A stretch of 64,000 bases of DNA from Staphylococcus phage SAC: the sequence record OR234014.1; one strand, written 5' to 3'. The notes below the pieces were generated by a model. That model saw only the letters and a program-made list of their open reading frames with translations, was not told the DNA's origin and did not search any database. Of this stretch, positions 2,227 through 30,236 are shown in pieces. The position numbers and the translations under genes were made by a program. How positions within the stretch are numbered: the first letter of the stretch is position 1; every line of letters starts with the position of its first letter.

Positions 2227-2464
2227 TATAACGTACTAAAGAGTAACCTCCTGCCCATCTTGACTCTACATGCTCAATATACATAACTGTAGAATCAGTG
2301 TAAGGAAATCCCGACTCTTCTACAATGATAGGCTCCTTATTATCTCTAGCTTTTTTAAAACGTTCTGCTATTTCAATATAAGGTAAGGGCAATACATCAT
2401 TTGTATTAGCCCTACCTAATGCTTCTTTAACACTATTAATATTTCTATCTATTAGATTATTCAT
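2111..2464 (-). CDS. hypothetical protein
   Basis: ORF of 117 aa in the gene array directly downstream of recA exon 2. Confidence 0.4.
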   Translation of the reverse strand: MNNLIDRNINSVKEALGRANTNDVLPLPYIEIAERFKKARDNKEPIIVEESGFPYTDSTVMYIEHVESRWAGGYSLVRYNGSEVKVPKTIHYSDIYVSNDVHRIKIVFEGAHPYEES

Positions 2465-3479
2465 TTACATCTTCCTTAGTCTCTTTATTAGTAGAGCTAA
2501 GCTCTTCGTAGTAATCTTGTAATGCTTTAAACTCTTCTAATTGAGTAGTGTCTACTTTTGTATTGTTTAAAGGTGCATACTTATGAGGGAAATTCTCGTG
2601 GTAAACTCTACTAAATAATTCTAAGTATAATTCATGGTTGTCCATTAATGTCGGTACCCAATCTTTATCATATTTTTTAATTTCTTCACCATTTAACGTA
2701 ACATAATTACGCCATGTTCCTTTAGTAATTAAACCACGCTCAACGGCTTCTTTATAGATAGTATGATAAGGGTCAACACCGTTTAATTGAATAGTATCTT
2801 CATCAGAACCTACTTCATAACCTGATAATAAATCAACTTCCGCTTTTTGACCAGGTCTAGATAGCTTAGACTTCTTAGTCTCAATACGCATAACATGACC
2901 TTTATACGTAGGTTTACCTGTCATAGCATCATTCTGTTTTAATTCTGATTCTTTACCTTTAGATACTTTAATACGTAAACTAGCACCATGTTCAAAAGCT
3001 CTTCCTCCTGTAGACTTAATAGGGTCATCATAAGGATTACTCATATTTAAATTATCACGTGCTTGGTTAATAACAATTAATCCTGTATTTGTATCATTAA
3101 GCTTAGGTGAAATAGCATTTACTACTTTTTGTGTACTTGTCGCTTTCGTTCCAAGTTTTTTATGGTCTACTCCTGCATCAATTTCATCTTGTGTACGTGT
3201 AGCTCCTAGGGAATCCCAAATGAACAAAATAGGTACGCCTGGTGCTTTCTCATTAAATGTATCAATCCAGTATTCTAACTCTTTACCTACGGTTTCTACT
3301 GATAGTTCAGTAACATTTTTAAGTCTACCTTCACCTGACTGTATTGAGAACAATTTAGATACGTCTACACCTAACTGTTCCATACGTTGGTTATCCGCTG
3401 TTCCTTCAATGTCAATCCAAACTGTAATAACTCCTAATTGTGTTGCTACTCTAGATAAGTGTACTGCAAAAGTCGATTT
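2457..3479 (-). CDS. recA: RecA/UvsX-like recombinase, exon 2 (begins KSTFAVHLSRV..., before the annotated Met)
   Basis: The frame is open from 3479. KST completes the Walker A motif GLTGSG|KST with exon 1. ILFIWDSLGAT is a RecA-like core. The intron ends in G at 3480. Confidence 0.75.
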   Translation of the reverse strand, partial: KSTFAVHLSRVATQLGVITVWIDIEGTADNQRMEQLGVDVSKLFSIQSGEGRLKNVTELSVETVGKELEYWIDTFNEKAPGVPILFIWDSLGATRTQDEIDAGVDHKKLGTKATSTQKVVNAISPKLNDTNTGLIVINQARDNLNMSNPYDDPIKSTGGRAFEHGASLRIKVSKGKESELKQNDAMTGKPTYKGHVMRIETKKSKLSRPGQKAEVDLLSGYEVGSDEDTIQLNGVDPYHTIYKEAVERGLITKGTWRNYVTLNGEEIKKYDKDWVPTLMDNHELYLELFSRVYHENFPHKYAPLNNTKVDTTQLEEFKALQDYYEELSSTNKETKEDVNE

Positions 3480-4839
3480 CAGTTACTACCCCTAGTTTCC
3501 TAGTACTTTAACACTAACTTAATAGTGGGCTTAGACTATATCTTTAATTGCCTGGTATGCAAGTTTTTGTTTTCGGTCTATATGAATATTATTATCTCGA
3601 TATAATGTTTTCATTAATTTTTTAGCTTTTTTACCTGTATAACCTATTCTATAAGAGGTAGAAGTTTTAGATATTGTAGGACATTTAAAACCTAATAAGT
3701 CTTCAATCCAACTACCTACTTCTTTTAAAAATTCAGGATGATTGTTAACTAAAGTTATTGACCATCTATTATTATAACATCCAATAGAACCATCACCATC
3801 AAACAATCCTCTTAAGTAATGTTTCCTTAAATCATAAGGTATGTCTTGTGTTAACCAATCTGTTTTTTTAGTTTTCATAGGTATTATACCATATTTAGCT
3901 AAATCATTACATAGTTTTTCATCGGTAACACTAAAAGTATACGTAGAATTTTCATTTTTTATATAATCTCTTTTTCTATGAGATTCATAAATTTTACTGT
4001 CTGAATTCAATTCTTTTTGAACTCTTTCTACTATTTCTTTATCAATTAACTCTAGTGTTAAGTAACATTGACCTTCTCTTCTATATCTAACACAACCGTC
4101 AGCCATCAATAAACCTAAAATATATGCTTTCTCTTCAGTATCAATTACTTCAAAGAAATCTTTATTAATATTTCTATTAACTCTCCTAGGTTGATAGTAA
4201 GATGTATCAATACCAAAGTCTCTTAATATTTTACTTATCTCTCTTGCATGTGTTGTATAGACTGCTTTTATCTCTGCAATAGTCATAGACTCCTCAGTGT
4301 ACATTCTTAAAATATCTTGTTTTTGTTTACTAGTCCATCTTCTCTTGCTATTTGTGTCAATATTAAACTCATCTAGTACTTTTTTAATTGTAAAGTAATG
4401 TGCATTATACTTTTTTTGTATTTCACTAAATTTCTTACCTTCTTGAAAGGATTTCACTATATCTTGTTTTTCTTCATTAGACCATACTCGTTTTACCATA
4501 TTATACTACTCTCCATTTTAAATAGATTTCGTAGGCAATTCCCACGTACTTCGGTTTCCCTACTCTACTCAGTTACTCACTAATACTTCTCAATATTAGC
4601 TACCTTTTCGATAGTCGTTGAACCTTCTCCATTTTACAGGAGCTTGGATGCTGATTACCTACACTATATAATATAACAGTTTAATAACTCGTTATACCAT
4701 ATAACTCATATACTTGTTATTTTTAACATTCACGCTTACCGTTTCCAGTTACGTTGTAGTTAACAAGTCTTTAAGGCTTCCCAGCAATTCACGTGGATTT
4801 GTAATAACTCATTATAAGCCATTGTGGCTATTTAAGGTA
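3480..4839 (-). mobile_element. Group I intron in recA carrying a LAGLIDADG homing endonuclease gene
   Basis: R element GTTCAACGACTA (plus-strand 4611-4622, reverse complement) and S element AAGATATAGTCT (3526-3537, reverse complement). The 5' exon ends in U (GGT). The internal guide sequence GCCAC pairs with exon AGTGGT. Omega-G lies at 3480. Confidence 0.75.
3531..4499 (-). CDS. LAGLIDADG homing endonuclease (two-motif), intron-encoded
   Basis: Two LAGLIDADG motifs: AYILGLLMADGCV and YLRGLFDGDGSI. Confidence 0.8.
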   Translation of the reverse strand: MVKRVWSNEEKQDIVKSFQEGKKFSEIQKKYNAHYFTIKKVLDEFNIDTNSKRRWTSKQKQDILRMYTEESMTIAEIKAVYTTHAREISKILRDFGIDTSYYQPRRVNRNINKDFFEVIDTEEKAYILGLLMADGCVRYRREGQCYLTLELIDKEIVERVQKELNSDSKIYESHRKRDYIKNENSTYTFSVTDEKLCNDLAKYGIIPMKTKKTDWLTQDIPYDLRKHYLRGLFDGDGSIGCYNNRWSITLVNNHPEFLKEVGSWIEDLLGFKCPTISKTSTSYRIGYTGKKAKKLMKTLYRDNNIHIDRKQKLAYQAIKDIV

Positions 4840-5052
4840 ACCACTACCAGTTAATCCGTAAACTTCTGTAAGTCTTCCTAGAGGAATACCTCCACCTAAA
4901 ATTCTATCATATTGTGGAATCATAGTAGGAATGATATTCTTAATATCTGCTCTATTACTATCTGATAGTAAAGTTAAACCTAATTCTTTACCTAAGTCAA
5001 TAGTATTTAAATTTGTAGTATCTACTTCTTTACCTTTTTTTGCTCTAGCCAT
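4840..5052 (-). CDS. recA: RecA/UvsX-like recombinase, exon 1
   Basis: ...ILGGGIPLGRLTEVYGLTGSG ends inside the P-loop. The annotated YLK-stop tail is intron read-through. Confidence 0.75.
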
Positions 5053-5114
5053 TATATCATCCTTTTATATGAAATTTAAATAAAAGAGTGCTAAGATAGC
5101 ACTCTATAAAGTTA

Positions 5115-6290: not shown

Positions 6291-6328
6291 AATATCTTTT
6301 CTCCTTTTATTTTAAAAATTACTTAATT

Positions 6329-6357: not shown

Positions 6358-6360
6358 TAC

Positions 6361-6843: not shown

Positions 6844-6867
6844 AATACCCTCCTCTATTTTACTGTA

Positions 6868-7557
6868 CTATATAACTTTGAAACTGTCAATATTATTTTT
6901 AATATATTCCGTTTTTTGTTTGTACTGCTCTTCAGTTAGTTTATCTGATTCATAGTAGTCTTTGATTTGTTGTAAGGCTAATTTATACTTAATATATCCT
7001 TTATACGAATTAAATTGCTTTATTAACTCTTCGTTGTATTCTACCATATCATTATATGTTAATCCTATCTCTATATCTGCATCTATAGGATACTGTCTTA
7101 ACTCACCATTAATTTTTATTTTTAAGAAATCATAAGGAAGGTTCTCCATTACATGGACAATAACTTTAGCCATAATATTAACTTCTTCAGGAGGTGAGTC
7201 TACTACAATACTATCATGAACAGTAGCTACTAACTTCGATTTCATATTCTTATTTTGAATAAAGTCGTCAATATAAGTAATAGCCATGTTAGTAAGGTAA
7301 CCACCTGTACCTTGAATAATCGTGTTAAAGGACTGTCTAAGACCCTCATTTTTAATCTTTTTATCTCTAGATTGTGCTGAGTGTATATATCTTCTGTGTC
7401 CATTCATTGTTTCTACATATCCATGTTTTTGAACAAACTCATGAGTTTCATCTATAGACTTCTTAATAGCAGGTTTATTAGAATAAAACTTATTAAATAT
7501 TTCAGTAGCTTCATCAACTGTCATATTATTTTTACCTGCAAACGAAAACTCTGACTC
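6868..7557 (-). CDS. polA: DNA polymerase I family (PolA), exon 2 (begins ESEFSFAGKNN before the annotated Met)
   Basis: Contains motif C (KLVATVHDSIVVD). Upstream in frame, ESEFSFAG follows omega-G at 7558. Confidence 0.7.
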   Translation of the reverse strand, partial: ESEFSFAGKNNMTVDEATEIFNKFYSNKPAIKKSIDETHEFVQKHGYVETMNGHRRYIHSAQSRDKKIKNEGLRQSFNTIIQGTGGYLTNMAITYIDDFIQNKNMKSKLVATVHDSIVVDSPPEEVNIMAKVIVHVMENLPYDFLKIKINGELRQYPIDADIEIGLTYNDMVEYNEELIKQFNSYKGYIKYKLALQQIKDYYESDKLTEEQYKQKTEYIKNNIDSFKVI

Positions 7558-8637
7558 CGTTTATACCCTCGGTTTCCCGATATTTATTAGGGGACTAGAC
7601 TATATCTTAAGTAAATACGTTACTATCTACTTCTAGGCTATTCCATGTAGGTATGAGCTACATGTACTCTACTCGGTTATATTGCAATAAGCCCTCTCGG
7701 CGTAAAGCTCACCTTTTGATAGTCGTTCGATAAAATAATTTAAGTGTTTAAGTGTAATCAAATCGTTCTCTTTTCTCTATTTTGAATGTAATCCCATAAC
7801 AATCTTCACCGGTTTCCATTTTTCTAAAGTTAGTGCCTGACGTAGGTATATTTAGTCTCTTTAGTAGCTTAGTTTTTACTCTATCATAATCAATTTCCAC
7901 ATGATTCTTATAAGCAACATAGTGAGGTGCATAAAGTTTAGAAGGGTTTTCTACAGGTTGATAATTATATTCTTGTAGTGTTTTAAAAACCCAGTTCTTA
8001 TGATGTTTTCTTTCCCCTCTAAGAACTGCAGAAATATGGCTTTGAATTAAGTTATGTTCCTTAGCAAATTTAGACTGATTGAAGAATATATATTCTTTAC
8101 CTGTAGGGTCTATACCTAATATCTTTTTACTTCTTGAAGGTACAAATCCTAAGTTCTCTTCTCTAGTAGCCCATTTACATTTATCTAAGCTATATACTTT
8201 ATTACCTAGTTCTTTAATATCCTTATCTAACACTAACTCACCATTTTTATACTTCTCTAAACTCCAACCATCAATTAACTCTACATCCTTAAGAAAGTTA
8301 TTAAAATTATGCCATCTATCGTCTACTGTTATTCCTAGTAATCCATAATATTTATATTCCTTACATTTAGGATTATAACATCTGTCTATCATATGAGACC
8401 ATACATGAGCTAATTTAGAATATAGCTTATTGTGATTATATCTTTCTCCTATTTTAAATTCTATTTAAATCATCCTTACTTATTAAATTACACTTAAATT
8501 ATTCTACACAGGATTAGCATTTTAAAGCCTTCCCTGTTAGCATAGTTCTTAACTACCATTTCCTGTAGCTCCTAACGTGAACTATACACCCTATACTCAA
8601 TAGGTTTACCTAGTTTTACTACGGCTATATTTTGTTA
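7558..8637 (-). mobile_element. Group I intron in the DNA polymerase gene carrying an HNH homing endonuclease gene
   Basis: The internal guide sequence GCCGTA pairs with exon TACGGT. R-like CGAACGACTA (7722-7731, reverse complement) and S element AAGATATAGTC (7597-7608, reverse complement). The 3' end GGGTATAAACG is identical to tail-tube intron 1. Confidence 0.75.
7748..8392 (-). CDS. HNH homing endonuclease (I-HmuI-like), intron-encoded
   Basis: NPKCKEYKYYGLLGI...SLDKCKWATREENLG matches the HNH_3-type motif of phage homing endonucleases. Confidence 0.7.
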   Translation of the reverse strand: MIDRCYNPKCKEYKYYGLLGITVDDRWHNFNNFLKDVELIDGWSLEKYKNGELVLDKDIKELGNKVYSLDKCKWATREENLGFVPSRSKKILGIDPTGKEYIFFNQSKFAKEHNLIQSHISAVLRGERKHHKNWVFKTLQEYNYQPVENPSKLYAPHYVAYKNHVEIDYDRVKTKLLKRLNIPTSGTNFRKMETGEDCYGITFKIEKRERFDYT

Positions 8638-11160
8638 ACCGTAAATTAAACCAAAGGCTACAGCTTTACTGGCTTGTCTTTCTTCTGCTGTTACGTCCTT
8701 CATACTTTTACCATACATAATACTTGCCGTATTTTTATGAATATCTTGTCCTGTTAAAAACATCTCTAACATTTCTTTATCATCTGTATATAGTGCCGTA
8801 ATACGCATCTCTAAGGCACTATAGTCGGCTTGTAAAATTACACCATCTTTAAATCTAGAGATAAAAGAACGTTTAATAGGGTGGTGATAATCAAACTTAT
8901 TTATATCAGATGTATGAGCAGGTAATTGTTGCATATTAATGTTTGAACTACTTAATCGACCTGATGCAGTTCCTGTACTATTATAGTTACCATGTAAATT
9001 ATGTGTATTCTTATTTACTCTTTTAGGTAATTTCTTAGTAAAAGAATTTCTTTTAGTTTGCAAAGAGGCATAATAAATAAGTAAGTCTAGTAGCTTTTTA
9101 TTATCTTCATTCTCAACCAAAGATAATGCCATCTTTATAGACTTAGTATCTGTTTTGTAGTCTTTCCATGATAACTCATCTTCTTTAGTACTATTACTGA
9201 AAGGTTTATCCTTAACTGTCTCTTTACTATAAGGTAACTGTATACCTAAAATGCTATATAATACTTCACCTTTATGGTCTCCTGAGCTTGGTTTGAACTT
9301 CCAACCTTCATCTTTAAATTTAGCTCTATACTCATGTATTTCTTTGTCTCTATCAGATGGTTTCTTCTCATGTTCTGCTAGGGCTAGTTGGTATAAATTA
9401 TACCTAGTTTCTTCAAATTCTTGGATAGCCCAATGCTCTCTAATTTCTTGGTGGGTTTTTTCCATCTCATTAATATAAAATTCATCATTTTTATGCATGT
9501 ATTCTAAGTCACAATGTAAACCATTTGATTGTATTCTAGCTAATGTTCTAATTAATCTAGGGTAACTTATTGACATTAAGTTCAATGCTTTAGGTCTATT
9601 TTGTTCTTTTAACTTTTCAATAACATCACAGTATATTCTTCTACAGACATCGGTGTCACCACTGGCATAAGGATGCATAAGCTCTAATGGAATCCAATCA
9701 TAATTAAAGTCACCTCCATCTACCTCATTAATAACTTTAGTATTGTCCTTATACGTGTTAATTAAATTAATAGATGTACCTAATACATAATCTTTAGCTT
9801 TGTTAGATAAACTCATATACTCGGGTGATGATTCGGCTACTTCTTTAAATTCAGAATCCATAAGCATATTCTTTGTAATAACCTCAGGTGTTAGTTTTAA
9901 CTCTAAGTATCTTTTTTGCTCTTCTGTGATACCATAATACTTATCTTCATCTGTTAGTTCTATATCAATGTTATCGAGTTTATTTTTCAACCAAGTATCA
10001 TACTCATTTGATTTTATGTTATATTCTTTCTTAGCAACTTTTTTATTTTCTTTTTTAATCTCTTTTAGTTTATCTGATAAGAATCTTAGTAGCTTCAATA
10101 CATACCACTCTTTAAAATCTTCAAGAGGTTTGTCATATCCTCCTACATCTGTTACTTCGTAAGCAAGGTCTGATAATCTTAGAGACTCTGCTTGTTCTTG
10201 TGTTACAGCTAAATACCAACCTACCTTAGTGTCTTGATTATTTTCAAAGTCTGTGAAACCTTGTGTTGTCATTAGAAAATTTATATCATAAGTAGCATTA
10301 TGTAGTACCTTAATGTCTTCTTTGCTAGCTACCCATTCTTTTAATAAGGAAAGAATTTCATCAATATCTTGTTGTCCATTCTCCCAAGTAAAGTCTGATT
10401 TATATAAAGGTATTGTAACACCTTGACCATTTTCCCAACTCATTGATAATACTAAGGGTTTACTTCCTTCTCTATCAGGACTAAGTGAGTTAGTTTCTAA
10501 ATCCCATGCGGTAATGTCTACACCGTCATGATTATCATTCTTTACTTCTTTATTAAATATTTCTCTTACACGCTCAATACTTGTAACAAGTTCATACTTA
10601 ACTTCTTTAGGTTTAAATACGTCTTCACCTTGTTCTACAAACTTACCTAATAACTTAAGGTCAGCTACTACATGACGCTCACTATTCTTATTAACGTTTG
10701 TGTACTCTATGCTATAAGTAGGTAATACCCAAACATCATGTTTTTTATCTTCACTAGTAATAGTTACTTTATTAGGTACACCTCTAACTTTACCGATAGC
10801 TGATACATTTAATAAATATTTAACCCCTAGCTTACCTAAAGGAATAATAATATCGTACTTATTGTTTATGATTATTTGACTCATTCTTTCATAGTAAGGT
10901 TTAACTTCAGATAACTTAACGTCTTGGTACTTAATTGTTTTACCATAGTTATTCTTAATAGGTGTAGGTACTTTAGGATATAAAAAATCAATGTCATAAT
11001 CCTTTGTGCTCCTATCTCTATTAATACCAGAAATATTAGACAATAGTTGTTTTAGTACTCTACCATTAGGTGTATTTAATAGTACATTCTTAACACTACC
11101 ATCATTACTAACTGAAAAGTGTTCCTCTCTGATATAGTCGTATAAAATTAAAACTTTCAT
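8638..11160 (-). CDS. polA: DNA polymerase I family, exon 1 (3'-5' exonuclease and polymerase domains through motif B)
   Basis: Ends ...ERQASKAVAFGLIYG (motif B, RxxxKxxxFGxxYG). The last codon is GGT. Confidence 0.8.
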
Positions 11161-13000: not shown

Positions 13001-13936
13001 TTAGGCTTCACAATTAATACAAATTTTAGATAAATTGAATTGTTGTGATGCATTTGTACCATGTTGATAATACAATGACTTAATACCATTAGACCATGCA
13101 AAGAGATAAAGTTCATTTAACTCCTCTGCTGTAACATGTTTAGGGTTAATCATAATGTTTATAGATTGTCCTTGGTCAATATATTTTTGTCTTGTAGAAG
13201 CTTGGTCTAATATATTATATTGATTAATTTCACCATATGTTTTAAATACTTCCTTTTCATAATCACTTAAGAAAGTTAGGTGTTGAACGGAACCATCATT
13301 GTCCCTAATACTCTCAATAACTTTTTTATTGTCCTTTCCTTTTTCTTTTAATAGTCTTTTAAGGTAAGGATTAATCATAGTTTTCTTTACTTTAGCAGTG
13401 TCTACAACGTAATAATTACTCATAAAAGGTTCAATTGATTTAGAAACTTGACCTAGGATAAATGAGCTCGAAGTCGTAGGAGCTACCGCCATCAAACACG
13501 AATTCCTTCTACCATACCCTTTAAGAATAGTAGGCTCTCCATAAAGTTTAGCTAACTGCTCACTAGCTTTATAAGTTTTTTCTTTTAATAATTTAAATAT
13601 CTCTTCATTAATTTGACTAGCTTTAATACTTTCAAAAGGTATGAGTTTTGATTGTAGGTATGAATGATATCCAAGAACGCCTATTCCTAAGGCTCTGTTC
13701 TCAACAGAAAAGTTATAAGCTCTCTCCATAAATTTAAATGCTTCTTGTTTATCTTTTTCAGCTGAGTCTCTTAGATATTCTAAGTCTCTAATAAACTCAG
13801 ACATAACAGCATCTAAAAAGTAAACAAGTGTCTCTACAGCATCCGTGTGTTTCCATTCATCATACTTAACAAGGTTCATACTAGATAGGTCACATACAAA
13901 TGACCAATCTTCTTTATTAGGTAACATAATTTCACT
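13001..13936 (-). CDS. nrdE: ribonucleotide reductase large subunit, exon 2 (begins SEI-MLPNKEDWSFVC)
   Basis: In-frame SEI precedes the Met. WSFVCDLSSMNLVKYDEW is the conserved region following NLCSEI. Omega-G at 13937. Confidence 0.75.
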   Translation of the reverse strand, partial: SEIMLPNKEDWSFVCDLSSMNLVKYDEWKHTDAVETLVYFLDAVMSEFIRDLEYLRDSAEKDKQEAFKFMERAYNFSVENRALGIGVLGYHSYLQSKLIPFESIKASQINEEIFKLLKEKTYKASEQLAKLYGEPTILKGYGRRNSCLMAVAPTTSSSFILGQVSKSIEPFMSNYYVVDTAKVKKTMINPYLKRLLKEKGKDNKKVIESIRDNDGSVQHLTFLSDYEKEVFKTYGEINQYNILDQASTRQKYIDQGQSINIMINPKHVTAEELNELYLFAWSNGIKSLYYQHGTNASQQFNLSKICINCEA

Positions 13937-14775
13937 CCTACATGTTCAATAGTGGTCGTTAATCACTACCAGTTCTCTAATTAACAATATTTATAGTTAG
14001 GGAATTTTTCAGAATTACATCTTCTGGTTAATGTATTTCTGTTTATTCCTAGCTCTTCAGAGCATATACCCATATTTTTATAAACTACGCCATCAACAAT
14101 AACTTTTTTAGCATTAGCGCTTTCTTTACCATACATCGGATTGTTTTTTCCTCGTCTATCCATTATATTCCACCCAAAACCTATCTCCATATTATAACCT
14201 TTTTTTACAGATTCGTACATGTCTATAAAAATTTGCTCTACCATGTAAGCAAACTTTTTATCCTCTGTACTAAAAGTGTATAATTCTTCTACATAAAAAT
14301 TCTCTTCACCATGTTTCATCATTGATTGGTGTAAATTAGTTGTTGAGCCTATCTTAGCTTTTCTAATATGATTTTTAAATCTATGTTGAACTGTTTTTGA
14401 TGTAATTCCGATGTATATTTTATTATTGTTTTTGTTTGTAATTTTATAAATATGGTACTCCATTTTCGACCCTCTTAATTATTATTGTTAATATGAACTT
14501 CTATATGTTTCCATATAGAGCAGACTATATCATCTTCCTTAATAAGGAAGTCCACCATTTCGATTTAAATAAGATTTACTTGATTATTACTCAATACTTA
14601 TACCACTTGGCTCTAACCTTATCCCTTCACTTATGTGAATAGGTTACGGATAGTCGTTAGGCATTTACAGATTTATAATCTGATTTAGCACGGTGTTGTC
14701 GTATATTTTAACTTAGATATTCACCGTTTAGATGGATTTTTCGATAGTAATTACTTACTAAAGGTGCAAATTTTT
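13937..14775 (-). mobile_element. Group I intron in nrdE/nrdA carrying a GIY-YIG homing endonuclease gene
   Basis: Exon 1 ends ...NLC (TGT) and exon 2 starts SEI, splitting the catalytic NLCSE motif. R-like CTAACGACTA (14651-14660, reverse complement) and S element GATATAGTCTG (14521-14531, reverse complement). Confidence 0.75.
13981..14463 (-). CDS. GIY-YIG homing endonuclease, intron-encoded
   Basis: IYKITNKNNNKIYIGIT matches the GIY-(10)-YIG motif. Confidence 0.75.
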   Translation of the reverse strand: MEYHIYKITNKNNNKIYIGITSKTVQHRFKNHIRKAKIGSTTNLHQSMMKHGEENFYVEELYTFSTEDKKFAYMVEQIFIDMYESVKKGYNMEIGFGWNIMDRRGKNNPMYGKESANAKKVIVDGVVYKNMGICSEELGINRNTLTRRCNSEKFPNYKYC

Positions 14776-15522
14776 ACACAAATTTGAGTTATTAATAGTC
14801 AATCCTTTGTCTTTATATACATCTACTGTATTACTATTTGCATTATCATGAAAGAAGATATAGGGGTATCCTATTTGTGTTCTTCTTGTTAATACTTTAG
14901 CCCATGTTTTTCTTTTTTCTTTGTCCCCATTAATCATGTCTAATAACCAATCATCAGTAACTGTTACCGCATGTGTTAAGTTTTGAATTGGATTACCTTC
15001 GGTACCAATCTCTAAAAACTCGTCAATATCTTTGTGTTCTATAGGTAGATAAGGGCTAAATCTTCCTCTTCTTTGGCTACCCTGACTTATCGTATCTGTC
15101 ATTTGCTCAAATAGCTTCATAAAATGAACGGAACCACTTGTCAGTCCATTATCAGTGATTTCTGAGCCTCTAGGTCTGATGTTACCGAAGTAACCACTTG
15201 TACCACCACCGTATTTACTCATCATACCTACTTCACTAGCAGTATTAAGTATCGATGGTATAGTATCATCTACCCAACTACCAAAACAACTAATACTAAA
15301 TCCTCTATCTTTCCCGAAATTAGACCATATAGGACTGGATAAGGAATAATAACCTTTACTCATATAATCATAAAACTTGTCAGAAAACCCATCAATACCT
15401 AAAATATCTTCAGCGTAATCTGCAATATCTTTAATTCTTTGTTCTGGTGTTTCACCATCACTTAAATAACCACGTTCTAGAAAAACTCTAGAATCATTAT
15501 TTAACCATTCAAAATTACTCAT
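14776..15522 (-). CDS. nrdE: ribonucleotide reductase large subunit, exon 1 (short N-terminus, no ATP cone)
   Basis: LSSPIWSNFG...SISCF (first catalytic Cys region) through ...NNSNLC. There is a stop codon immediately upstream of the ATG. Confidence 0.75.
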
Positions 15523-15537
15523 CTATATACACTGCCT

Positions 15538-19977: not shown

Positions 19978-21904
19978 TATTTAATTCCTTTCTTAGTGTA
20001 GCTACACCGTTTTCTTTTACTACCGTAATTGTATTCTCAAATAAAGGTGCTAGACTCTTATTATGAGTAATAACAAAAATAGTACCTACTGTTTTTAGTC
20101 TATCTTTTAGTAGTTTAACTACGTTCTCACAACCAATAGTGTCTAGACCATCAAAGCATTCATCGTAAAGGGCTATATTTGTAGATATATCTTCTTTACT
20201 CATAATTAAGTCTTGGATAGCAAAACTAATAGCTAGGTCAATACGTTTTTGCTCTCCTGCTGAATTAGATTTGTAAGACTCTCCTCCATTGTTATTCTTA
20301 ACAATAACATCGAACTTATCTTTAAGTTCTCCCTTAGCATTTTCTACTTGTGTTTGAAATTCAATTTCGATATCCGAACCCGCTAATATTTGTAAATACT
20401 CATTAGCTTTATCATTTAAGAACGGTGTAATAAAGTCTAATATTACAGAACGTAATCCTTTATTACTAAATGCATCTACAGCTTGTTTATATTTTGTTTT
20501 CTTACTCTCTAATTGTACTATATTTTCCTTATGTTTGTCAATAGTATTGTCAATATCTTTTAGTTCTTTATTGTGTAATTCTTCATTAGGTTCTTCTATA
20601 TAAGAGTAATCATTTAATATTGGTTCTTTTAAATTAGCTTTAGTGTTTTCTAATTGGCTAATTTCATCATATACTTCTTGCTGTTCTCTGTATTGCCGTT
20701 GAATATCATCATCATGTTTTTTCTTTTCTATATCTTCTTGCTGTATAAATTGTTGTAATTCTTTAGATTTAGCTAGTAGCTCTTCTTTCTTATTAATTAT
20801 AGTCTGCTCATTATGTTCGTACTGAGATATTTTAGCTTGTTTTTCTTTAATTTGTAATTCTAAGTTTTCTTTTTCTTTTATTTTGTGTGTATTATCTATA
20901 GGAGAACCACAAACAGGACAATGGTCATTTGTATCTAGTTTATTAATAGATTGTTTTAATTGATTAATTATATTTAGAGTTGTATTCTTATTTGTTGTTT
21001 CTTGACTCAATAATGGCAATAATTTATCATTAATATTTGTGTTAATCTTTTCAATACCTTGGTTAGCTTTTGTATAATTTTCACTAAATACAAATTCAAA
21101 GTCTTCAACTTTAGGAATACTACCTTTACATACACCAATCTGATTGTCTAAATCTTTTAATTTATTCTCGTACTCTTGTTTCTTTTGATTAAACTGTTCC
21201 TCTTCTTGCTTCTTACGCTCTAATAAGTTATTATATTTATTTACTTCATTATTATATTGTTCTTGTTTTAGGTTTCTTTTATATTCTAGTTTTTCTATTT
21301 CTTGTTGTTCTTTACTTTGTTTCTCCTCTACTTCTTTAACTTTTTCTTTAGCTACTTCTTGGGCTTGCTTATAAATATCAGTCTTAGTAATAGATTCTAG
21401 TATTTCTTTTTTACCTTTGTCGGTAGCTTGTGAAAACATAGGAATGTCTCCTTGACCATATATAATAGCATTTACATATGTATTAAAAGGAATACCAAAT
21501 AACTCTTGTATTTGAGTATCCGTAACATCATTTGTAGAGCCTGTTATCTCTTTGTTATTACAGAACAGCTTAACCTTGTTCTTGTGTTCCTTGTGTTTAC
21601 GATATCTTTCGATTAAATACTCGTCTTTACCTATGTTGAAAGAAAGCTTAACGTAGGTGTCTTTCTTCTTATACTTATTAACAACATCATCTGCCTTTAA
21701 ACCTTTCTCAGTCTTTCCGAACAGTGCATATGTGATAGAGGATATCATGCTTGTTTTACTTGTTCCATTACTTTCAAAACTATCATTTGTTTTATTAATA
21801 CCTTCAATAAGTACAAGACCTTGCTTATCCAGATTTAGCTTGATATGCTCAATAGCTAAAAAGTTATTCATCTCTACATAATTAAACTTAACCATTTGTA
21901 CCAC
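19961..21904 (-). CDS. sbcC: SbcC/Rad50-like recombination ATPase
   Basis: N-terminal Walker A (GINKTNDSFESNGTSKTS). Long coiled coil with a CPVCGS zinc hook. C-terminal signature and Walker B (LYDECFDGLD). Confidence 0.7.
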   Translation of the reverse strand: MVQMVKFNYVEMNNFLAIEHIKLNLDKQGLVLIEGINKTNDSFESNGTSKTSMISSITYALFGKTEKGLKADDVVNKYKKKDTYVKLSFNIGKDEYLIERYRKHKEHKNKVKLFCNNKEITGSTNDVTDTQIQELFGIPFNTYVNAIIYGQGDIPMFSQATDKGKKEILESITKTDIYKQAQEVAKEKVKEVEEKQSKEQQEIEKLEYKRNLKQEQYNNEVNKYNNLLERKKQEEEQFNQKKQEYENKLKDLDNQIGVCKGSIPKVEDFEFVFSENYTKANQGIEKINTNINDKLLPLLSQETTNKNTTLNIINQLKQSINKLDTNDHCPVCGSPIDNTHKIKEKENLELQIKEKQAKISQYEHNEQTIINKKEELLAKSKELQQFIQQEDIEKKKHDDDIQRQYREQQEVYDEISQLENTKANLKEPILNDYSYIEEPNEELHNKELKDIDNTIDKHKENIVQLESKKTKYKQAVDAFSNKGLRSVILDFITPFLNDKANEYLQILAGSDIEIEFQTQVENAKGELKDKFDVIVKNNNGGESYKSNSAGEQKRIDLAISFAIQDLIMSKEDISTNIALYDECFDGLDTIGCENVVKLLKDRLKTVGTIFVITHNKSLAPLFENTITVVKENGVATLRKELNNETKD

Positions 21905-22154: not shown

Positions 22155-22155
22155 A

Positions 22156-24645: not shown

Positions 24646-24649
24646 AGCG

Positions 24650-24886
24650 CTAGTGTTTAATTTTATTGTTTGTTAATTCTAACTCTATAATACTTCTTTT
24701 AGGCTTAATATTAAACAATTTACAACCATACTTATCTATTACGTAATTATCCAATGTATTAAATATATCGGTTGAGACATCCTCTAACTCCTTTTCAGAG
24801 TACTTTGTGTTTATAGTCTCTATAAATCCGTGCTTATTAATGACTTTAAAGTTTTTTAATTTTACTTTTGCTTCATTTAAGTTCAA
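24650..24886 (-). CDS. hypothetical protein
   Basis: ORF of 78 aa with an RBS. Confidence 0.35.
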   Translation of the reverse strand: MNLNEAKVKLKNFKVINKHGFIETINTKYSEKELEDVSTDIFNTLDNYVIDKYGCKLFNIKPKRSIIELELTNNKIKH

Positions 24887-24946: not shown

Positions 24947-24955
24947 GGCTTTTTC

Positions 24956-28231: not shown

Positions 28232-28240
28232 TACCCATAC

Positions 28241-29551
28241 CTACTTTCCTAATTCTTTAATTTCAAATTTTTCTTCTTCATATATTTTTCTACGCTCATT
28301 AGAATGTTTATATAAAAACTTATGTGTCATATCATTAAAATCAAATATCTGTGTTGTATTATCTTCTTTCTTTTTACGTAACGCACGACCTACACGTTGT
28401 AGTGTTTGTCGTAAAGATTTACCACCTGCACCTAGGATTAATGAACGAATACCACTGATATCAACACCCTCATCAATAAGGCTTGTAGCAATCATAACTT
28501 TAAGTTTACCATTACGCATTTCATCTAACTTTTGTTTACGCATATCCGACTCTATTTCACCATGTAAAAAGAAATTCTCTACACCCATTTCATTCAACAT
28601 AGTGGATAGTATTTCACCATGCTCAACAAAATTAATAATAATAAGCGTAGCTTTATCTTGATTATACCACTTAGCTGTTAGTTTTGCAATAAGTTTATTT
28701 CTAAACTCGTTATGTACAATACCTTTATTATATGCATCCCTGTAATCCTTAATATTATCTATATCATCAGGGTTAGCAATAGGGATAATATTTATTGTAG
28801 GTCTAGCTGAATAGCCATTCTCGATTAAAAACTCATTAGATGTTCTTACAATAATATCTCCGAATAATGCTTGCATACGCATCCATAGTAGCTCATCTTT
28901 CATGTCTATGGAGCCTGTTAGTGCTATCCTGTATAGTGCATTCTCACAGGACATTAAACTTGTATACCATGAATCTGATTTACTGTGATGTGCTTCATCA
29001 ACTATCATTACAGCTATAGAGTCTAGGAACTCACGCATTTTATGATATTTATCATAGCTCTTTTGATTTTTCTTTCTTACTTCTTTTTGGAAAATAACAT
29101 TATGATTGTTTAATGCCATTAATACTTCAGCATCCGTCTTTGAATTATGATAAATATCTTGAAGTATATCAAGCACATTCTGCTCTACTTTAGTTTTAGG
29201 TGTTGTACTTTCTAATAATAACTTAAGTAACCTTTTTTGATTTTTACCACCTTCAAATTTAGGAAGTATCTCTTTAGCTATCTTTTTACTTAAGTTTACT
29301 TTAGCAGATACTTTTACTCCTTCTGTAGGGTCTTTTAAGTTAGAGTTAACAGTAGGAATCATAACTACAGTTACTTGTTTAACATCAAACTTACCAGAAC
29401 CTACTTTACCTACTGATATATTCAATCGTTCACTTAAACGGTCAGCAGATTGATTAAAAATCTCAGTAGAACTTGTAAAAAAAGCTACACGCTCTCCTTT
29501 TTCTAGTTGTGGTAATAGTTGGTCTATGATACCGCTAGCAACCTCTGTTTT
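28241..29551 (-). CDS. SF2 (DEAH-type) DNA helicase, exon 2 (begins KTEVASG...)
   Basis: DEAH box (MIVDEAHHS) and helicase-C motif (QRVGRALR). The annotated TTG start codon is the end of the intron (omega-G at 29552). Confidence 0.7.
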   Translation of the reverse strand, partial: KTEVASGIIDQLLPQLEKGERVAFFTSSTEIFNQSADRLSERLNISVGKVGSGKFDVKQVTVVMIPTVNSNLKDPTEGVKVSAKVNLSKKIAKEILPKFEGGKNQKRLLKLLLESTTPKTKVEQNVLDILQDIYHNSKTDAEVLMALNNHNVIFQKEVRKKNQKSYDKYHKMREFLDSIAVMIVDEAHHSKSDSWYTSLMSCENALYRIALTGSIDMKDELLWMRMQALFGDIIVRTSNEFLIENGYSARPTINIIPIANPDDIDNIKDYRDAYNKGIVHNEFRNKLIAKLTAKWYNQDKATLIIINFVEHGEILSTMLNEMGVENFFLHGEIESDMRKQKLDEMRNGKLKVMIATSLIDEGVDISGIRSLILGAGGKSLRQTLQRVGRALRKKKEDNTTQIFDFNDMTHKFLYKHSNERRKIYEEEKFEIKELGK

Positions 29552-29798
29552 CAATTATGTTACGATTAGGTTCGTTACTCCTAACCTTCTTGTAGTCTCC
29601 TACAAAGTTCAGACTATATCTTAACCATATCTAATGAGACTTAGGTTCTCCCTGTTTCCAATCACTTGATTGTACATAATAGTCGTTGCACCTTCCTAGT
29701 AATTTATTAAGCTTGGCTCATGATTGTCTCAAATGAGAGAGTTCCCATGAATTAAAGGAGTTACACTTATAATATTTCTACTATAAGGGGCAAAATTT
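29552..29798 (-). mobile_element. ORF-less group I intron in the helicase Walker A codons
   Basis: Exon 1 ends ATNAG (GGT) and exon 2 starts KTEV, restoring GxxxxGKT. R element GTTCAACGACTA (29680-29690 region, reverse complement) and S element GATATAGTCTG (29610-29623, reverse complement). The 5' end resembles the nrdE intron. Confidence 0.7.
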
Positions 29799-30236
29799 AC
29801 CTGCATTGGTAGCTTGCTTACATATACCATTATAATTGACTAAACTATTAAACACAGCTTCATACTGATAGTCACGTAATGTAATCTTACCTACGTTATT
29901 ATCTAGTAGCTGTATTTCATCATCAATATCTTCTTCAGCTAAAAAGCTTTCAGATTTTTCATCAATAATTTCGTATTGAAAGTTATGTCTTGATTGTAAC
30001 TCACCTAGTAATGTTATCATCTTAGGTAACAACCCACTAGGGAATTTGTTCTCAGCATAATCGTAGAAATCCACATAACCATCCCACACACCTCGTTTAA
30101 AAGCTAAGCTATGTTGATAGCCCTCTTTCTTAGCTCCTAACGTTTTATGAACACGCTTAAGTATGATATCTTTAATATACCCGTCACTTTCATCAAAATC
30201 TACATATGTATATATATTCTGTTGTCTTAATTGCAT
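29799..30236 (-). CDS. SF2 helicase, exon 1
   Basis: RDYQYEAV (Q/Ia-like motif) followed by ...KQATNAG (first half of Walker A). The annotated KFCPL-stop tail is intron read-through. Confidence 0.7.

What the first reader, a model, noticed from the sequence alone, without database searches (positions are those of the whole stretch)
2457..30236. Seven group I introns in 64 kb, inserted in catalytic motifs of replication/recombination genes and carrying three different homing-endonuclease families
recA is split in its P-loop (GSG|KST) by a 1360-nt intron encoding a LAGLIDADG endonuclease. The SF2 helicase is also split in its P-loop (NAG|KTEV) by a 247-nt ORF-less intron. The DNA polymerase is split right after motif B (YG|ESEF) by an intron encoding an HNH endonuclease. 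The RNR large subunit is split inside NLC|SEI by an intron encoding a GIY-YIG endonuclease. Two more introns lie in the tail-tube gene and one element at the TMP gene. Every 5' splice site follows a U (GGT in four cases, GGTT in one, TGT and CTT in the other two). The helicase and nrdE introns share nearly identical 5' ends (AAATTTTGCCCCTTATAGTAG versus AAAATTTGCACCTTTAGTAAG). The pol and tail-tube introns share the 3' end GGGTATAAACG. This points to a small number of ribozyme lineages spreading within one genome and targeting the most conserved codons.
Basis: partly seen in the sequence, partly recalled or inferred. Interest (0 to 1): 0.7.

Follow-up and report, generated by a model that had tools for sequence, protein, structure and literature searches.

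The report
Phage introns, one transposon-type, dual-ended
This stretch of a known Staphylococcus phage genome does carry seven self-splicing RNA elements in essential genes, as already known for this phage group, but the one in the tail tape-measure gene is a transposon-derived intron (IStron type) that appears able to join the gene to either of two alternative enzyme-bearing ends.

Summary
The window is a Silviavirus (99.5-100% to Staphylococcus phages StAP1/Stau2). Six are canonical group I introns: recA, DNA polymerase, RNR alpha, SF2 helicase and tail tube (two). Each has a unique U|...G| boundary solution matching uninterrupted homologues. Rfam's whole-window scan found only one; region-wise scans recover the others, though pol stays weak.

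Split genes and introns in this phage group are already published, so this part is ordinary.

Three corrections:
- The pol-intron ORF is an I-HmuI-like protein without a recognisable HNH motif.
- The tape-measure (TMP) element is not canonical. It is an ORF-less derivative of an IS607-type "group B" IStron, inserted after GG, with U as its first base.
- An eighth element, an IStron carrying TnpB, is cut by the window edge.

The unexpected part: the TMP element has one 5' inverted repeat and two 3' ends. Each 3' end has a matching repeat plus GG, and each is in frame with a different TMP C-terminal lysin module. This layout is conserved in Silviavirus and Sepunavirus. Alternative 3' splicing is the best reading, but it is untested.

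The parts
4840..5052 (-). recA/UvsX-like recombinase exon 1 (ends ...YGLTGSG)
   Evidence: GH15 RecA reads ...YGLTGSGKSTFAVHL...
3480..4839 (-). recA group I intron, 1360 nt. P1 is GUGGU/GCCAC with a U.G pair, and the intron ends in G.
   Evidence: RF00028 gives partial hits at 4790-4599 (23.8 bits, E 0.0016) and 3603-3513 (17.6 bits). Empty site in RP15. The same intron is present in many Twortvirinae.
3531..4499 (-). LAGLIDADG homing-endonuclease ORF (322 aa), lying between P7 and J8/7. Its last codons form J8/7-P7'.
   Evidence: LAGLIDADG_3, E 4e-16
2457..3479 (-). recA exon 2 (starts KSTFAVHL)
8638..11160 (-). DNA polymerase I exon 1 (ends ...AFGLIYG, motif B)
7558..8637 (-). pol group I intron, 1080 nt. 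P1 is UACGGU/GCCGUA with a U.G pair, and the intron ends in G. The ORF sits in the P6 loop (P6 arms at 8503 and 7746).
   Evidence: RF00028 gives only 17.7 bits, E 0.09. Natural ORF-deleted and intron-less alleles exist.
7748..8392 (-). I-HmuI-like intron ORF (214 aa). It has a NUMOD-like DNA-binding domain. The N-terminal domain carries an invariant LDKDIK...N motif in place of H-N-H.
6868..7557 (-). DNA polymerase I exon 2 (starts ESEFSFAGKNNM)
14776..15522 (-). RNR alpha subunit exon 1 (ends ...NNSNLC, the catalytic Cys)
13937..14775 (-). RNR alpha group I intron, 839 nt. The ribozyme core is at 14785-14501, and the ORF lies in the 3' extension after P9.
   Evidence: RF00028 63.7 bits, E 1e-15
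13981..14463 (-). GIY-YIG homing-endonuclease ORF (160 aa) with an I-TevI-type DNA-binding domain
13001..13936 (-). RNR alpha exon 2 (starts SEIMLPNKEDW)
29799..30236 (-). SF2 helicase exon 1 (ends ...ATNAG)
29552..29798 (-). helicase group I intron, 247 nt, without an ORF
   Evidence: RF00028 91 bits, E 5e-22. Present in all Silviavirus records matched.
28241..29551 (-). SF2 helicase exon 2 (starts KTEVASGII)
58199..58526 (-). tail tube gene exon 1 (ends ...ISYHG plus the T of the Cys codon)
57897..58198 (-). tail tube intron 1, 302 nt, without an ORF
   Evidence: RF00028 37.8 bits, E 6e-8
57823..57896 (-). tail tube exon 2 ((C)SANNYNETWQTNEIVTEEIEFSYL)
   Evidence: 100% identity to GH15
57525..57822 (-). 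tail tube intron 2, 298 nt, without an ORF
   Evidence: RF00028 50.7 bits, E 8e-12
57498..57524 (-). tail tube exon 3 (TASDKART, then stop)
52360..55289 (-). tape measure protein (TMP) exon 1. It ends ...VKNKKG with GG as its last two bases.
51943..52359 (-). Group B IStron-type ribozyme of the TMP element. It starts with U. P1 is AAGG+U / GCCUU, and the core runs P3-P9.2. It ends with the 5' inverted repeat GTTAAAATATATAA (51956-51943).
   Evidence: RF00028 24.8 bits, E 4e-4. Covariation with 4 related copies: 36 of 94 pairs show double changes, and 0 of 500 shuffles reach this..
51803..51822 (-). 3' end A: the 3' inverted repeat TTATATGTTTTAAC, then TTATGG. Excision 52359..51803 removes 557 nt.
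   Evidence: (duplex -19.3 kcal/mol against -7.9 +/- 2.5 for shuffles)
50971..51802 (-). TMP alternative exon 2A. It is in frame with exon 1 (KKG|INDK...), runs 277 aa and carries a glucosaminidase domain. This module type is the TMP C-terminus in Listeria phage A511.
50935..50954 (-). 3' end B: the 3' inverted repeat TTATATATTTTAAC (a perfect complement of the 5' repeat), then AAATGG. Excision 52359..50935 removes 1425 nt.
50088..50934 (-). TMP alternative exon 2B. It is in frame with exon 1 (KKG|INNKKQKM...), runs 282 aa and carries a Phage_lysozyme2 domain. It is the orthologue of the Kayvirus TMP C-terminus.
   Evidence: 65% identity to GH15 TMP aa 1059-1352
63136..64000 (-). The 3' part of an eighth element, cut by the window edge. 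It is a group B IStron holding the TnpB gene C-terminus (stop at 63220), the 3' repeat GGAAGTTAATTTAATTAAC and a terminal ...ATATGG.
   Evidence: Cas12f1-like TNB and OrfB_IS605 domains; the full copy in StAP1 has the ribozyme plus a 402-aa TnpB..
62946..63135 (-). Exon 2 of the virion gene homologous to GH15 ORF094 ((G)NLIIGAGIANKTLDVDG...NMIGI, then stop), which the eighth element interrupts
   Evidence: 84% identity to GH15 ORF094 aa 233-302
47870..47890 (-). Empty IStron target in the tail lysin gene (...CCGTTATGGGG|TGATGCG...). Phage CIFT_MFB_MRSA16 has this site filled by ribozyme + TnpB + RAGATH-18.
21440..21470 (-). Empty IStron target in the SbcC-like exonuclease gene (TATGGT|CAAGGA). 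StAP1 has this site filled (TATGGG|T...ACGG|CAGGGA).

Best explanation
The window is part of a Silviavirus genome (Staphylococcus phage of the Stau2/StAP1 type). It holds two kinds of self-splicing elements.

**(1) Six canonical group I introns.** They sit in recA, DNA polymerase I, RNR alpha, an SF2 helicase and the tail tube gene (two introns).
- Each has a conserved P3-P9 core and a terminal G.
- Removing each one restores the reading frame of a conserved protein.
- Three carry a homing-endonuclease gene in a different peripheral loop: an I-HmuI-like ORF in P6 of the pol intron, LAGLIDADG between P7 and J8/7 of the recA intron, and GIY-YIG after P9 of the RNR intron.
- These genes explain the presence/absence pattern of the introns among related phages, and why the introns sit at the most conserved codons. 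Such sites are the ones that endonucleases can recognise across diverged phages.

**(2) The element in the tape measure gene.** Its ribozyme belongs to the same broad family, but the element is of the IS607-type 'group B IStron' class.
- It is inserted after GG and its first base is U, which forms the U.G pair one position past the splice site. It is excised after G.
- It ends with a long AU-rich inverted-repeat stem followed by ...GG.
- This copy has lost TnpB. Full copies with TnpB sit at the window edge and in related phages.
- Uniquely, it has one 5' repeat arm and two 3' ends (A and B). Each 3' end is a 3' repeat arm plus GG, and each is followed in frame by a different TMP C-terminal peptidoglycan-hydrolase module.

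**Proposed mechanism (inferred, not shown).** The 5' arm pairs with either 3' arm, so the ribozyme ligates exon 1 to module A or to module B. That would give two TMP isoforms of about 1253 and 1258 aa.

**Sub-confidences.**
- Six canonical introns: 0.95.
- IStron class for the TMP and edge elements: 0.85.
- Splicing to module A occurs: 0.8.
- Both isoforms are made by alternative 3' splicing: about 0.5.
For: **Identity.** The window is 99.5-100% identical to StAP1/Stau2.

**Junctions.**
- Uninterrupted GH15 proteins span every junction.
- RP15 supplies empty sites for recA and pol, with only synonymous changes around them.
- Each of the six canonical introns has a unique boundary solution, after U and after G.

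**Ribozyme.**
- RF00028 hits: helicase 91 bits, nrdE 63.7, tube I2 50.7 and tube I1 37.8, TMP 24.8, recA 23.8 + 17.6.
- The P7 motif occurs 7 times, once per element.
- The pol core, once its P6 insert is removed, folds into P1-P2-P4/5-P6-P8-P9.

**Endonucleases.**

**IStron class.**
- Published definition: GG target, U as first base, BcISt1 spliced after G, AU-rich inverted-repeat stem, ISBth15-like ORF B (PMC4227781). A TGGG target is reported for CboIStrons (bioRxiv 10.1101/2023.11.20.567912).
- An exact filled/empty pair shows the element is T...GG inserted after GG.
- TnpB is present in the paralogous copies.
- The inverted-repeat duplexes are -19.3 kcal/mol against -7 to -8 for shuffles, and the repeat arms covary between copies.
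- Ribozyme covariation: 36 of 94 pairs show double changes, against 4-9 in slid controls; 0 of 500 shuffles reach this.

**Dual 3' ends.**
- Cutting after GG leaves exon 1 open for 277 aa (A) and 282 aa (B) in the window, and for 284 aa (A) and 276 aa (B) in Sepunavirus phage 110.
- Cutting after U gives a stop within 0-4 codons in all four cases.
- In phage 110, module A has 90 conserved codons after the junction with no ATG, GTG or TTG.
- The codons between junction B and the first ATG evolve as coding sequence.
- The 3' terminal motif occurs exactly twice, at A and at B, in every TMP::IStron genome fetched, and not at all in intron-free TMP genomes.
- A-type and B-type modules are normal TMP C-termini in A511 and in Kayvirus respectively.
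Against: - No RNA or protein data were available, so splicing is inferred for every element.
- The pol intron reaches only 17.7 bits (E 0.09) against RF00028, even in a natural ORF-deleted variant.
- The TMP ribozyme scores only 24.8 bits, and its J8/7 reads ACAAAUAGUC rather than the usual AGAUAUAGUC.
- In the window, module A has an upstream in-frame ATG (51840) with a weak Shine-Dalgarno sequence, and the Romulus authors predicted promoters just upstream. Module B has an ATG 8 codons after the junction. Independent translation of either module is therefore not excluded.
- Silviavirus genomes are 94-100% identical, so conservation within the genus carries little weight. The cross-genus argument rests on one Sepunavirus genome.
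- The TMP copy has no TnpB or TnpA, so it fails one defining IStron feature.
Confidence: 0.8

Rival explanations
1. One reading: seven canonical group I introns, every one spliced after a U, derived from a few ribozyme lineages copied within this genome.
For: - The sequence GGT is present at the TMP 5' junction, and the IGS GCCUU pairs with AAGGU to form a U.G pair.
- The TMP ribozyme is clearly related to the tube and recA introns.
Against: - Splicing after the U gives a stop within 0-4 codons at both TMP 3' ends, in two genera.
- The filled/empty pair in the tail lysin gene proves that the T belongs to the element.
- Published group B IStrons behave in exactly this way.
- The introns are shared with, or missing from, other phage genera.
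- The helicase/nrdE and pol/tube similarities are weak.
Confidence: 0.05
2. Only 3' end B is used in the TMP gene. On this view the intron is 1425 nt long, and module A is an intron-borne cargo gene expressed on its own, as endonuclease genes are. The A junction would be a relic of the recombination that brought module A in.
For: - 3' repeat B is the perfect complement of the 5' repeat, whereas A needs one G.U pair.
- B is the orthologue of the Kayvirus TMP C-terminus.
- The window has an ATG at 51840, and promoters were predicted upstream in Romulus.
- In full IStrons the ORF lies between the repeat arms.
Against: - In phage 110 the module A frame is open and conserved from the junction onward, but has no start codon for 90 codons.
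- In phage 110 it is repeat A that is perfect and repeat B that has the mismatch.
- Module A is in frame with exon 1 in both genera, despite indels between them.
- A-type modules are covalent TMP C-termini in A511 and P200.
Confidence: 0.15
3. Only 3' end A is used in the TMP gene (557-nt intron). Module B is then translated separately from its own ATG, and the conserved repeat and GG in front of it are leftovers.
For: - End A is transcribed first and lies close to the ribozyme, so it is kinetically favoured.
- Module B has an ATG 8-11 codons after the junction in both genera.
- GenBank records annotate B as a separate CDS.
Against: - There is no Shine-Dalgarno sequence before the window's B ATG.
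- The codons between the junction and the ATG stay open and GH15-like while varying (DELF3 TNKKKEKM, phage 110 GDKKKKGKM, GH15 GDTKKKEKM).
- 3' repeat B and the ...AYGG end are conserved across genera while the rest of the spacer has diverged.
- B is in frame with exon 1 under the same rule in both genera.
Confidence: 0.25
4. There is no splicing. The split genes are translated as separate polypeptides that assemble, or the downstream parts are pseudogenes.
For: Most GenBank records annotate the pieces as separate CDSs.
Against: - The splits fall inside Walker A loops, pol motif B and the RNR catalytic motif.
- The second exons lack start codons at the junction.
- Ribozyme cores are present in all seven elements.
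- Intron-free alleles are colinear.
- Homologous Twort and Sepunavirus introns are reported as self-splicing (cited in PMC11878797 and PMC6597688).
Confidence: 0.02

Closest known systems
Group I introns of Twort-like staphylococcal phages (Twort orf142/tail tube with three introns, Twort nrdE introns, K/812 recA and pol introns, Romulus/Remus split genes)
   Same: - Same phage subfamily and same host genes: helicase, RNR, recA and pol are reported split in Romulus/Remus (PMC7497331).
- The tail tube gene is multiply interrupted (Twort CDS is a 4-piece join).
- The ribozymes are IA2-like, with HNH-type, LAGLIDADG and GIY-YIG ORFs.
- The recA intron with its LAGLIDADG ORF is 87-90% identical in Kayvirus 812-type phages.
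   Different: - The window's two tail-tube introns sit at other codons (110 and 134/135) than Twort's three. Those lie roughly after codons 115, 129-130 and 136, judged from tblastn HSP ends.
- Neither the tail-tube introns nor the TMP element are annotated in the Romulus record.
Group B (IS607-family) IStrons: BcISt1 of Bacillus cereus, CbISt/CboIStron of Clostridium botulinum and its phages (Tourasse 2014, PMC4227781; Zedaveinyte 2023, bioRxiv 10.1101/2023.11.20.567912)
   Same: - The target ends in GG (TGGG/TGGGG at three sites).
- U is the first base of the element, and excision is after G.
- The U.G pair in P1 is followed by an unpaired stretch.
- The IA2-type core has P7.1/7.2 and P9.1/9.2.
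- A long AU-rich inverted-repeat stem encloses the IS part.
- Full copies carry an ISBth15-like TnpB.
- ORF-less derivatives exist.
   Different: - The host is a virulent Staphylococcus myophage. No paper on this was found.
- No serine-recombinase TnpA was seen.
- The TMP copy has no TnpB.
- The TMP copy has two alternative 3' ends, each fused in frame to a different exon. This is not described for any IStron in the papers read.
Alternative splicing by phage group I introns (exon skipping in Twort orf142; exon skipping in the SIOphi polymerase gene, PMC11878797)
   Same: A phage group I ribozyme system that yields more than one mRNA from a single gene.
   Different: - The known cases skip an exon lying between two introns.
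- Here a single ribozyme would choose between two 3' splice sites and produce mutually exclusive C-terminal domains.
- This is inferred only, not shown.
I-HmuI (SPO1 DNA polymerase intron HNH nicking endonuclease, PDB 1u3e)
   Same: - It is also an intron ORF in a family A DNA polymerase gene of a Herelleviridae phage.
- It shares the NUMOD-like DNA-binding domain.
   Different: - The catalytic His residues of the HNH motif are absent. The family-invariant residues are D56/D58/K60 and N80.
- No HNH Pfam domain is found in any of the 19 homologues.

Membership tests
Group I intron (Rfam RF00028) | Covariance-model match to the P1-P9 core | tested here: met
   - At or above the gathering score of 50: helicase 91, nrdE 63.7, tube I2 50.7.
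- Below gathering but significant: tube I1 37.8, E 6e-8; TMP 24.8, E 4e-4; recA 5' half 23.8, E 0.0016.
Group I intron (Rfam RF00028) | Covariance-model match for the pol intron specifically | tested here: inconclusive
   - Score is 17.7 bits, E 0.09, and 16.9 bits in the ORF-deleted SapYZU04 allele.
- The core is split by a P6 insertion.
- Structural support comes only from the fold after in-silico deletion and from the P7 and J8/7 motifs.
Group I intron | Precise interruption of a conserved gene, where removal restores the colinear protein | tested here: met
   GH15 proteins span all junctions. RP15 supplies empty sites for recA and pol.
Group I intron | 5' splice site after a U that forms a U.G pair with the internal guide sequence in P1 | tested here: met
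   - Six introns meet this: recA GUGGU/GCCAC, pol UACGGU/GCCGUA, tube I1 GGUU/GACC, tube I2 CCUU/GAGG, and helicase and nrdE (P1 in the Rfam alignments).
- The TMP element does not: its U is the first intron base.
Group I intron | Terminal G (omega G) at the 3' splice site | tested here: met
   All seven elements, and both TMP 3' ends, end in G.
Group I intron | Self-splicing with guanosine cofactor | not testable with these tools
   Requires in vitro transcription and splicing, or RT-PCR from infected cells.
Group B (IS607-type) IStron | GG-ending target, with U as the first base of the element and excision after G | tested here: met
   - Exact filled/empty pair in the tail lysin gene.
- sbcC and ORF094 copies.
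- The TMP frame test in two genera.
- Definition taken from PMC4227781.
Group B (IS607-type) IStron | Group IA2-type ribozyme forming the 5' part of the element | tested here: met
   RF00028 hit. The consensus structure has P7.1/7.2 and P9.1/9.2, with 36 compensatory pairs.
Group B (IS607-type) IStron | [quoted passage not shown] | tested here: met
   The 5' repeat at 51956 pairs with 3' repeat A (51822) or 3' repeat B (50954) over 14-19 bp, at -19.3 kcal/mol against about -7 for shuffles. The arms covary between copies.
Group B (IS607-type) IStron | IS component (TnpB/ORF B, with or without serine recombinase TnpA) between the repeat arms | tested here: not met
   - The TMP copy has no tnpB or tnpA. 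Between the arms lie 115 nt (end A) or the module A ORF (end B). It is therefore filed as an ORF-less derivative, not a full IStron.
- The edge copy and the StAP1/CIFT paralogues do carry TnpB.
- No TnpA was seen.
LAGLIDADG homing endonuclease | LAGLIDADG domain(s) | tested here: met
   PF14528, E 4e-16, in two stretches.
GIY-YIG homing endonuclease (I-TevI type) | GIY-YIG catalytic domain plus an I-TevI-like DNA-binding domain | tested here: met
   PF01541, E 4e-9, and PF20987, E 4e-7.
HNH homing endonuclease (I-HmuI type) | HNH (beta-beta-alpha-metal) catalytic motif with conserved His/Asn/His | tested here: inconclusive
   - No Pfam HNH hit, even at E <= 10, and none in the 19 homologues.
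- The invariant residues are LDKDIK...N80.

The most novel reading that the evidence does not exclude
A single transposon-derived group I ribozyme (an ORF-less IS607-type IStron) in the tape measure gene of Silviavirus and Sepunavirus phages works as a natural alternative-splicing switch. Its one 5' inverted-repeat arm pairs with either of two 3' arms, so exon 1 is ligated to either a glucosaminidase module or a lysozyme-like module. The virions would then carry tape measure proteins with two different cell-wall-degrading tips.
Probability: 0.45. Interest if true: 0.7.

Novelty: new member of a known kind. Interest (0 to 1): 0.42.

Why it matters
The six canonical introns add nothing new. Twort-like phages are the textbook case of intron-rich phage genomes, and introns at catalytic codons are well documented.

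Three things are useful beyond that:

1. **A practical warning.** A whole-genome Rfam scan at default settings found 1 of 7 ribozymes here. GenBank records of these therapeutic phages therefore annotate many essential genes as fragments, and mark 'promoters' inside ribozymes.

2. **IStrons in virulent staphylococcal phages.** IS607-type IStrons with TnpB RNA-guided nucleases are active residents of virulent staphylococcal phages used for therapy. They have filled and empty sites in structural and repair genes. This is not mentioned in the IStron surveys read, and it explains why TMP intron boundaries 'could not be determined'.

3. **A possible splicing switch.** If the dual 3' ends are both used, this would be a compact, experimentally tractable example of mutually exclusive exon choice by a bacterial-type ribozyme. 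It would also affect how these phages breach the cell wall.

Tried and rejected
- **RF00028 on the whole window**, at gathering threshold and at E <= 10. It found only the helicase intron. I rejected this as evidence of absence after region-wise scans.
- **The natural ORF-deleted pol intron (SapYZU04)**, used to rescue the CM score. It stayed at 16.9 bits.
- **Canonical boundaries for the TMP element** (cut after GGU, omega G). All combinations give stops.
- **An alternative IGS, GUGUU pairing with AACAU**, which would have given an in-frame product with a U at -1. I rejected it because it is not conserved in the paralogues and is inconsistent with the P2 layout. The GG rule explains all five copies.
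- **A homopolymer sequencing error in StAP1**, as an explanation for the odd sbcC junction. It became unnecessary once the group B rule was recognised.
- **An intron-less TMP allele within Silviavirus.** None was found among 46 records.
- **Pfam HNH detection on the N-terminal 100 aa at E <= 10.** Nothing was found. A PDB sequence search matched only the C-terminal domain.
- **Primary papers not held in the library:** Vandersteegen 2013, Landthaler & Shub 1999, Landthaler 2002. Statements about them are taken from citing papers or from my own knowledge, and are marked as such.
- **A technical point.** Reverse-oriented or back-to-back fetched loci were not copied to the script machine, so I re-fetched them by accession.

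Full report
**What the window is.** Megablast places the window in genus Silviavirus (Herelleviridae, Twortvirinae). It is 99.5-100% identical to Staphylococcus phages StAP1 and Stau2, and 98% identical to Remus/Romulus. All genes discussed lie on the minus strand.

**Checking the observation.**
- I read every junction and compared the conceptual exon joins with intron-free Kayvirus GH15.
- GH15 RecA reads ...YGLTGSGKSTFAVHL... and GH15 Pol reads ...FGLAFGESPFSFAGKNNM.... GH15 helicase reads ...ATNGGKTEVASGII..., and the GH15 tail tube protein ends ...ISYHGCSANNYNETWQTNEIVTEEIEFSYLTASDKART.
- Exact intron coordinates and lengths come: recA 4839..3480 (1360 nt), pol 8637..7558 (1080), RNR alpha 14775..13937 (839), helicase 29798..29552 (247), tube I1 58198..57897 (302) and tube I2 57822..57525 (298).
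- For each of these six, only one pair of cut points gives the right protein. That pair has a U before the 5' cut and a G before the 3' cut.
- Silviavirus RP15 has uninterrupted recA and pol genes. Its sequences at the predicted joins match, apart from 5 and 4 synonymous changes clustered within 36 nt of each site. Such clustering is the usual footprint around homing-endonuclease targets.

**Are they group I introns?**
RF00028 on the whole window finds only the helicase intron (91 bits), even at E <= 10. This is a filter effect.
- Scanning each region alone gives RNR 63.7 bits and tube I2 50.7 and tube I1 37.8. It also gives the TMP element 24.8 bits, E 4e-4, and recA 23.8 plus 17.6 bits for the two halves around its ORF.
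- The pol intron stays weak (17.7 bits, E 0.09). It is still weak in a natural allele that has lost most of the ORF (16.9 bits), because a large insertion sits in P6.
- With that insertion removed in silico, the pol sequence folds unaided into P1 (UUACGGU paired with GCCGUAG), P2/P2.1, P4-P5, a 17-bp P6, P8 and P9.
- The P7 strand AACGACTA occurs exactly seven times in the window, once in each element, against 1.5 expected.
- The three ORFs sit in three different peripheral positions: the P6 loop (pol), between P7 and J8/7 (recA), and after P9 (RNR).

**The endonucleases.**
- Pfam confirms LAGLIDADG (recA intron), and GIY-YIG with an I-TevI-type DNA-binding domain (RNR intron).
- The pol-intron ORF matches only the I-HmuI NUMOD-like DNA-binding domain.
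- It belongs to PHROG 2081, labelled 'HNH endonuclease'. However, no HNH Pfam domain is found in it or in its 19 homologues.
- The homologues are all about 214-270 aa, so this is a conserved family and not a truncated remnant.
- The invariant residues are R4 C5 Y6 ... D56 K57 D58 I59 K60 ... N80.
- I therefore call it an I-HmuI-family relative with a non-canonical active site. 'HNH' is only partly supported.

**What is already known.**
- A 2020 paper on Silviavirus KSAP7/KSAP11 summarises Vandersteegen 2013. In Remus and Romulus, the terminase, portal, helicase, RNR, DNA-repair and polymerase genes are split and/or contain group I introns with homing nucleases, and endonuclease content varies between strains (PMC7497331).
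[quoted passage not shown] - My own recollection, not checked here, is that Landthaler et al. 2002 already stressed that the Twort nrdE introns lie next to codons for functionally important residues.
- The presence/absence pattern is rich:
  - The tail tube gene has 0 to 4 introns across Twortvirinae.
  - The recA intron with its LAGLIDADG gene is also in Kayvirus 812-type phages and in phiIPLA-C1C.
  - The helicase intron is in all Silviavirus records.
- The core of the finding is therefore real but ordinary.

**Lineages.**
- Pairwise alignment of the seven cores gives one strong family: tube I1, tube I2, recA and TMP (z 10-37).
- Pol is weakly attached (z 5-6), and helicase/RNR similarity is weak (z 4).
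- Inside the strong family there are short blocks of 97-98% identity: 49 nt shared by recA and tube I1, and 96 nt shared by TMP and tube I1. The rest is about 80% identical. This indicates recombination between introns.

**The TMP element is a different kind of thing.**
- GH15 TMP aligns to exon 1 only up to ...KNKKG, which is 20 codons before the ORF's stop.
- Its C-terminal 294 aa align best to the second downstream ORF (module B, 65% identity).
- The first downstream ORF (module A) matches GH15 only at its two ends.
- Canonical boundaries give stop codons.
- StAP1 carries two paralogous copies of this ribozyme, one in sbcC and one in the homologue of GH15 ORF094. Each is followed by a full TnpB gene.
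- CIFT_MFB_MRSA16 has another copy in the tail lysin gene, and the window holds the exact empty site...TTATGGGG|TGATGCG... against ...TTATGGGG|TAACAAT...TTAACTTACGG|TGATGCG....
- The element is therefore T...GG, inserted after GG.
- This is the published signature of group B (IS607-type) IStrons: a GG-ending target, a U that belongs to the element, BcISt1 shown to splice after G, a long AU-rich inverted-repeat stem, and an ISBth15-like ORF B (PMC4227781). A TGGG target motif is reported for CboIStrons.
- The ribozyme is under structural selection. Across five copies, 36 of 94 predicted pairs show compensatory double changes, against 4-9 in slid controls, and 0 of 500 shuffles reach this.
- The 3' part of the ORF094 copy, with the end of tnpB, lies at 64000..63136 in the window, followed by exon 2 (63135..62946).
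- I found no paper describing IStrons in Staphylococcus phages.

**Two 3' ends.**
- The TMP element has one 5' repeat arm (GTTAAAATATATAA, starting at 51956) and two 3' arms. One is TTATATGTTTTAAC, followed by TTATGG and ending at 51803. The other is TTATATATTTTAAC, followed by AAATGG and ending at 50935.
- Both 3' arms pair with the 5' arm at -19.3 kcal/mol, against about -7 for shuffles.
- Cutting after GG joins exon 1 in frame to module A (KKG|INDK..., 277 aa, glucosaminidase). It likewise joins exon 1 in frame to module B (KKG|INNKKQKM..., 282 aa, Phage_lysozyme2).
- The same layout exists in Sepunavirus phage 110, whose module A is only 61% identical.
  - Both junctions there are again in frame under the GG rule and hit stops under the U rule.
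  - Module A there has 90 conserved codons after the junction with no possible start codon.
  - The base after the GG of end B is C, not T, which removes the boundary ambiguity.
- In DELF3, the codons between junction B and the ATG vary but stay open and GH15-like.
- The 3' terminal motif TTTAAC-NN-AYGG occurs exactly twice, at A and at B, in all five other TMP::IStron genomes fetched. It occurs at the ends of the TnpB-carrying copies, and nowhere in GH15, Twort or RP15.
- A-type modules are the normal TMP C-terminus in Listeria phages A511 and P200, and B-type modules are the normal one in Kayvirus.
- Sepunavirus authors noted TMP introns whose boundaries they could not determine (PMC6597688).

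**Mechanism.**
- Shown: the anatomy, the frames, the covariation, and the filled and empty sites.
- Inferred: the ribozyme excises T...GG, and the 5' arm can pair with either 3' arm, so two TMP isoforms are made.
- Splicing to A seems necessary, at least in phage 110.
- Whether B is reached by splicing or by independent initiation is open. I put alternative 3' splicing at roughly even odds.

**Verdict.**
- The main phenomenon is already known.
- The IStron identity of the TMP and edge elements is a new member of a known kind.
- The dual 3' ends are the one point that deserves an experiment.

Noticed in passing
window 63136-64000 (and exon 2 at 62946-63135): The window edge cuts through a full IStron: a group I ribozyme plus the TnpB RNA-guided nuclease. 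It interrupts the virion gene homologous to GH15 ORF094. Only the end of tnpB, the 3' inverted repeat and the ...ATATGG end lie inside the window.
   Followed up: yes
window ~47880 and ~21455: These are empty target sites for IStron copies that are filled in other Silviaviruses: the tail lysin gene in CIFT_MFB_MRSA16, and the sbcC-like gene in StAP1. At the sbcC site the empty allele reads TGGT-CAA where the filled one reads TGGG-CAG. The differences are synonymous and remove the TGGG target motif.
   Followed up: partly
window 14776-14784 (NLC codons); locus L012 2025-4706: In phage RP15 a 333-aa intein (CVAPYTKI...GILTGQ, ending in Gln) sits between L and C of the RNR catalytic NLC motif. 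That is one codon from where this window has its GIY-YIG intron. StAP1 has yet another intein after G148, plus a second (HNH) intron, both absent here.
   Followed up: partly
window 13001-16875: The RNR here is unusual. The spliced alpha subunit is only 560 aa and has no ATP cone. The beta subunit ORF (15538-16875, 445 aa) starts with an ATP-cone-like sequence (MITQIKKRDGSVVDYDLSKV...). Kayvirus GH15 has a standard 704-aa NrdE instead.
   Followed up: no
window 24645-24660: Compared with StAP1, the window lacks 245 nt at the start of a DNA methylase gene, flanked by a 7-nt overlap. The ORF at 24163-24645 (160 aa) is therefore N-terminally truncated relative to the 239-aa StAP1 protein.
   Followed up: no
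window 58132-58037 vs 52284-52189; 4671-4623 vs 58024-57976: Blocks of 96 nt (97% identity) and 49 nt (98% identity) are shared between otherwise ~80% similar ribozymes (TMP element/tube I1, and recA intron/tube I1). This suggests recent gene conversion between introns, including between an IStron-type and a canonical intron.
   Followed up: partly
whole window (method): Rfam cmscan on the full 64 kb reports 1 of 7 ribozymes. The same model on sub-kilobase slices reports 6 with E < 0.002. GenBank records of this genus accordingly annotate fragments, and in Romulus 'promoters' are annotated inside the tail-tube introns and the TMP element.
   Followed up: yes
locus L001 20430-21583 (CIFT_MFB_MRSA16), L013 8802-10093 (Twort): The last ~33 codons of the tail tube gene are an intron hotspot. 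At least five or six different insertion sites are used across Twortvirinae. The four CIFT introns have helicase-type P7 contexts (GTGCAACGACTA), unlike the window's two.
   Followed up: partly
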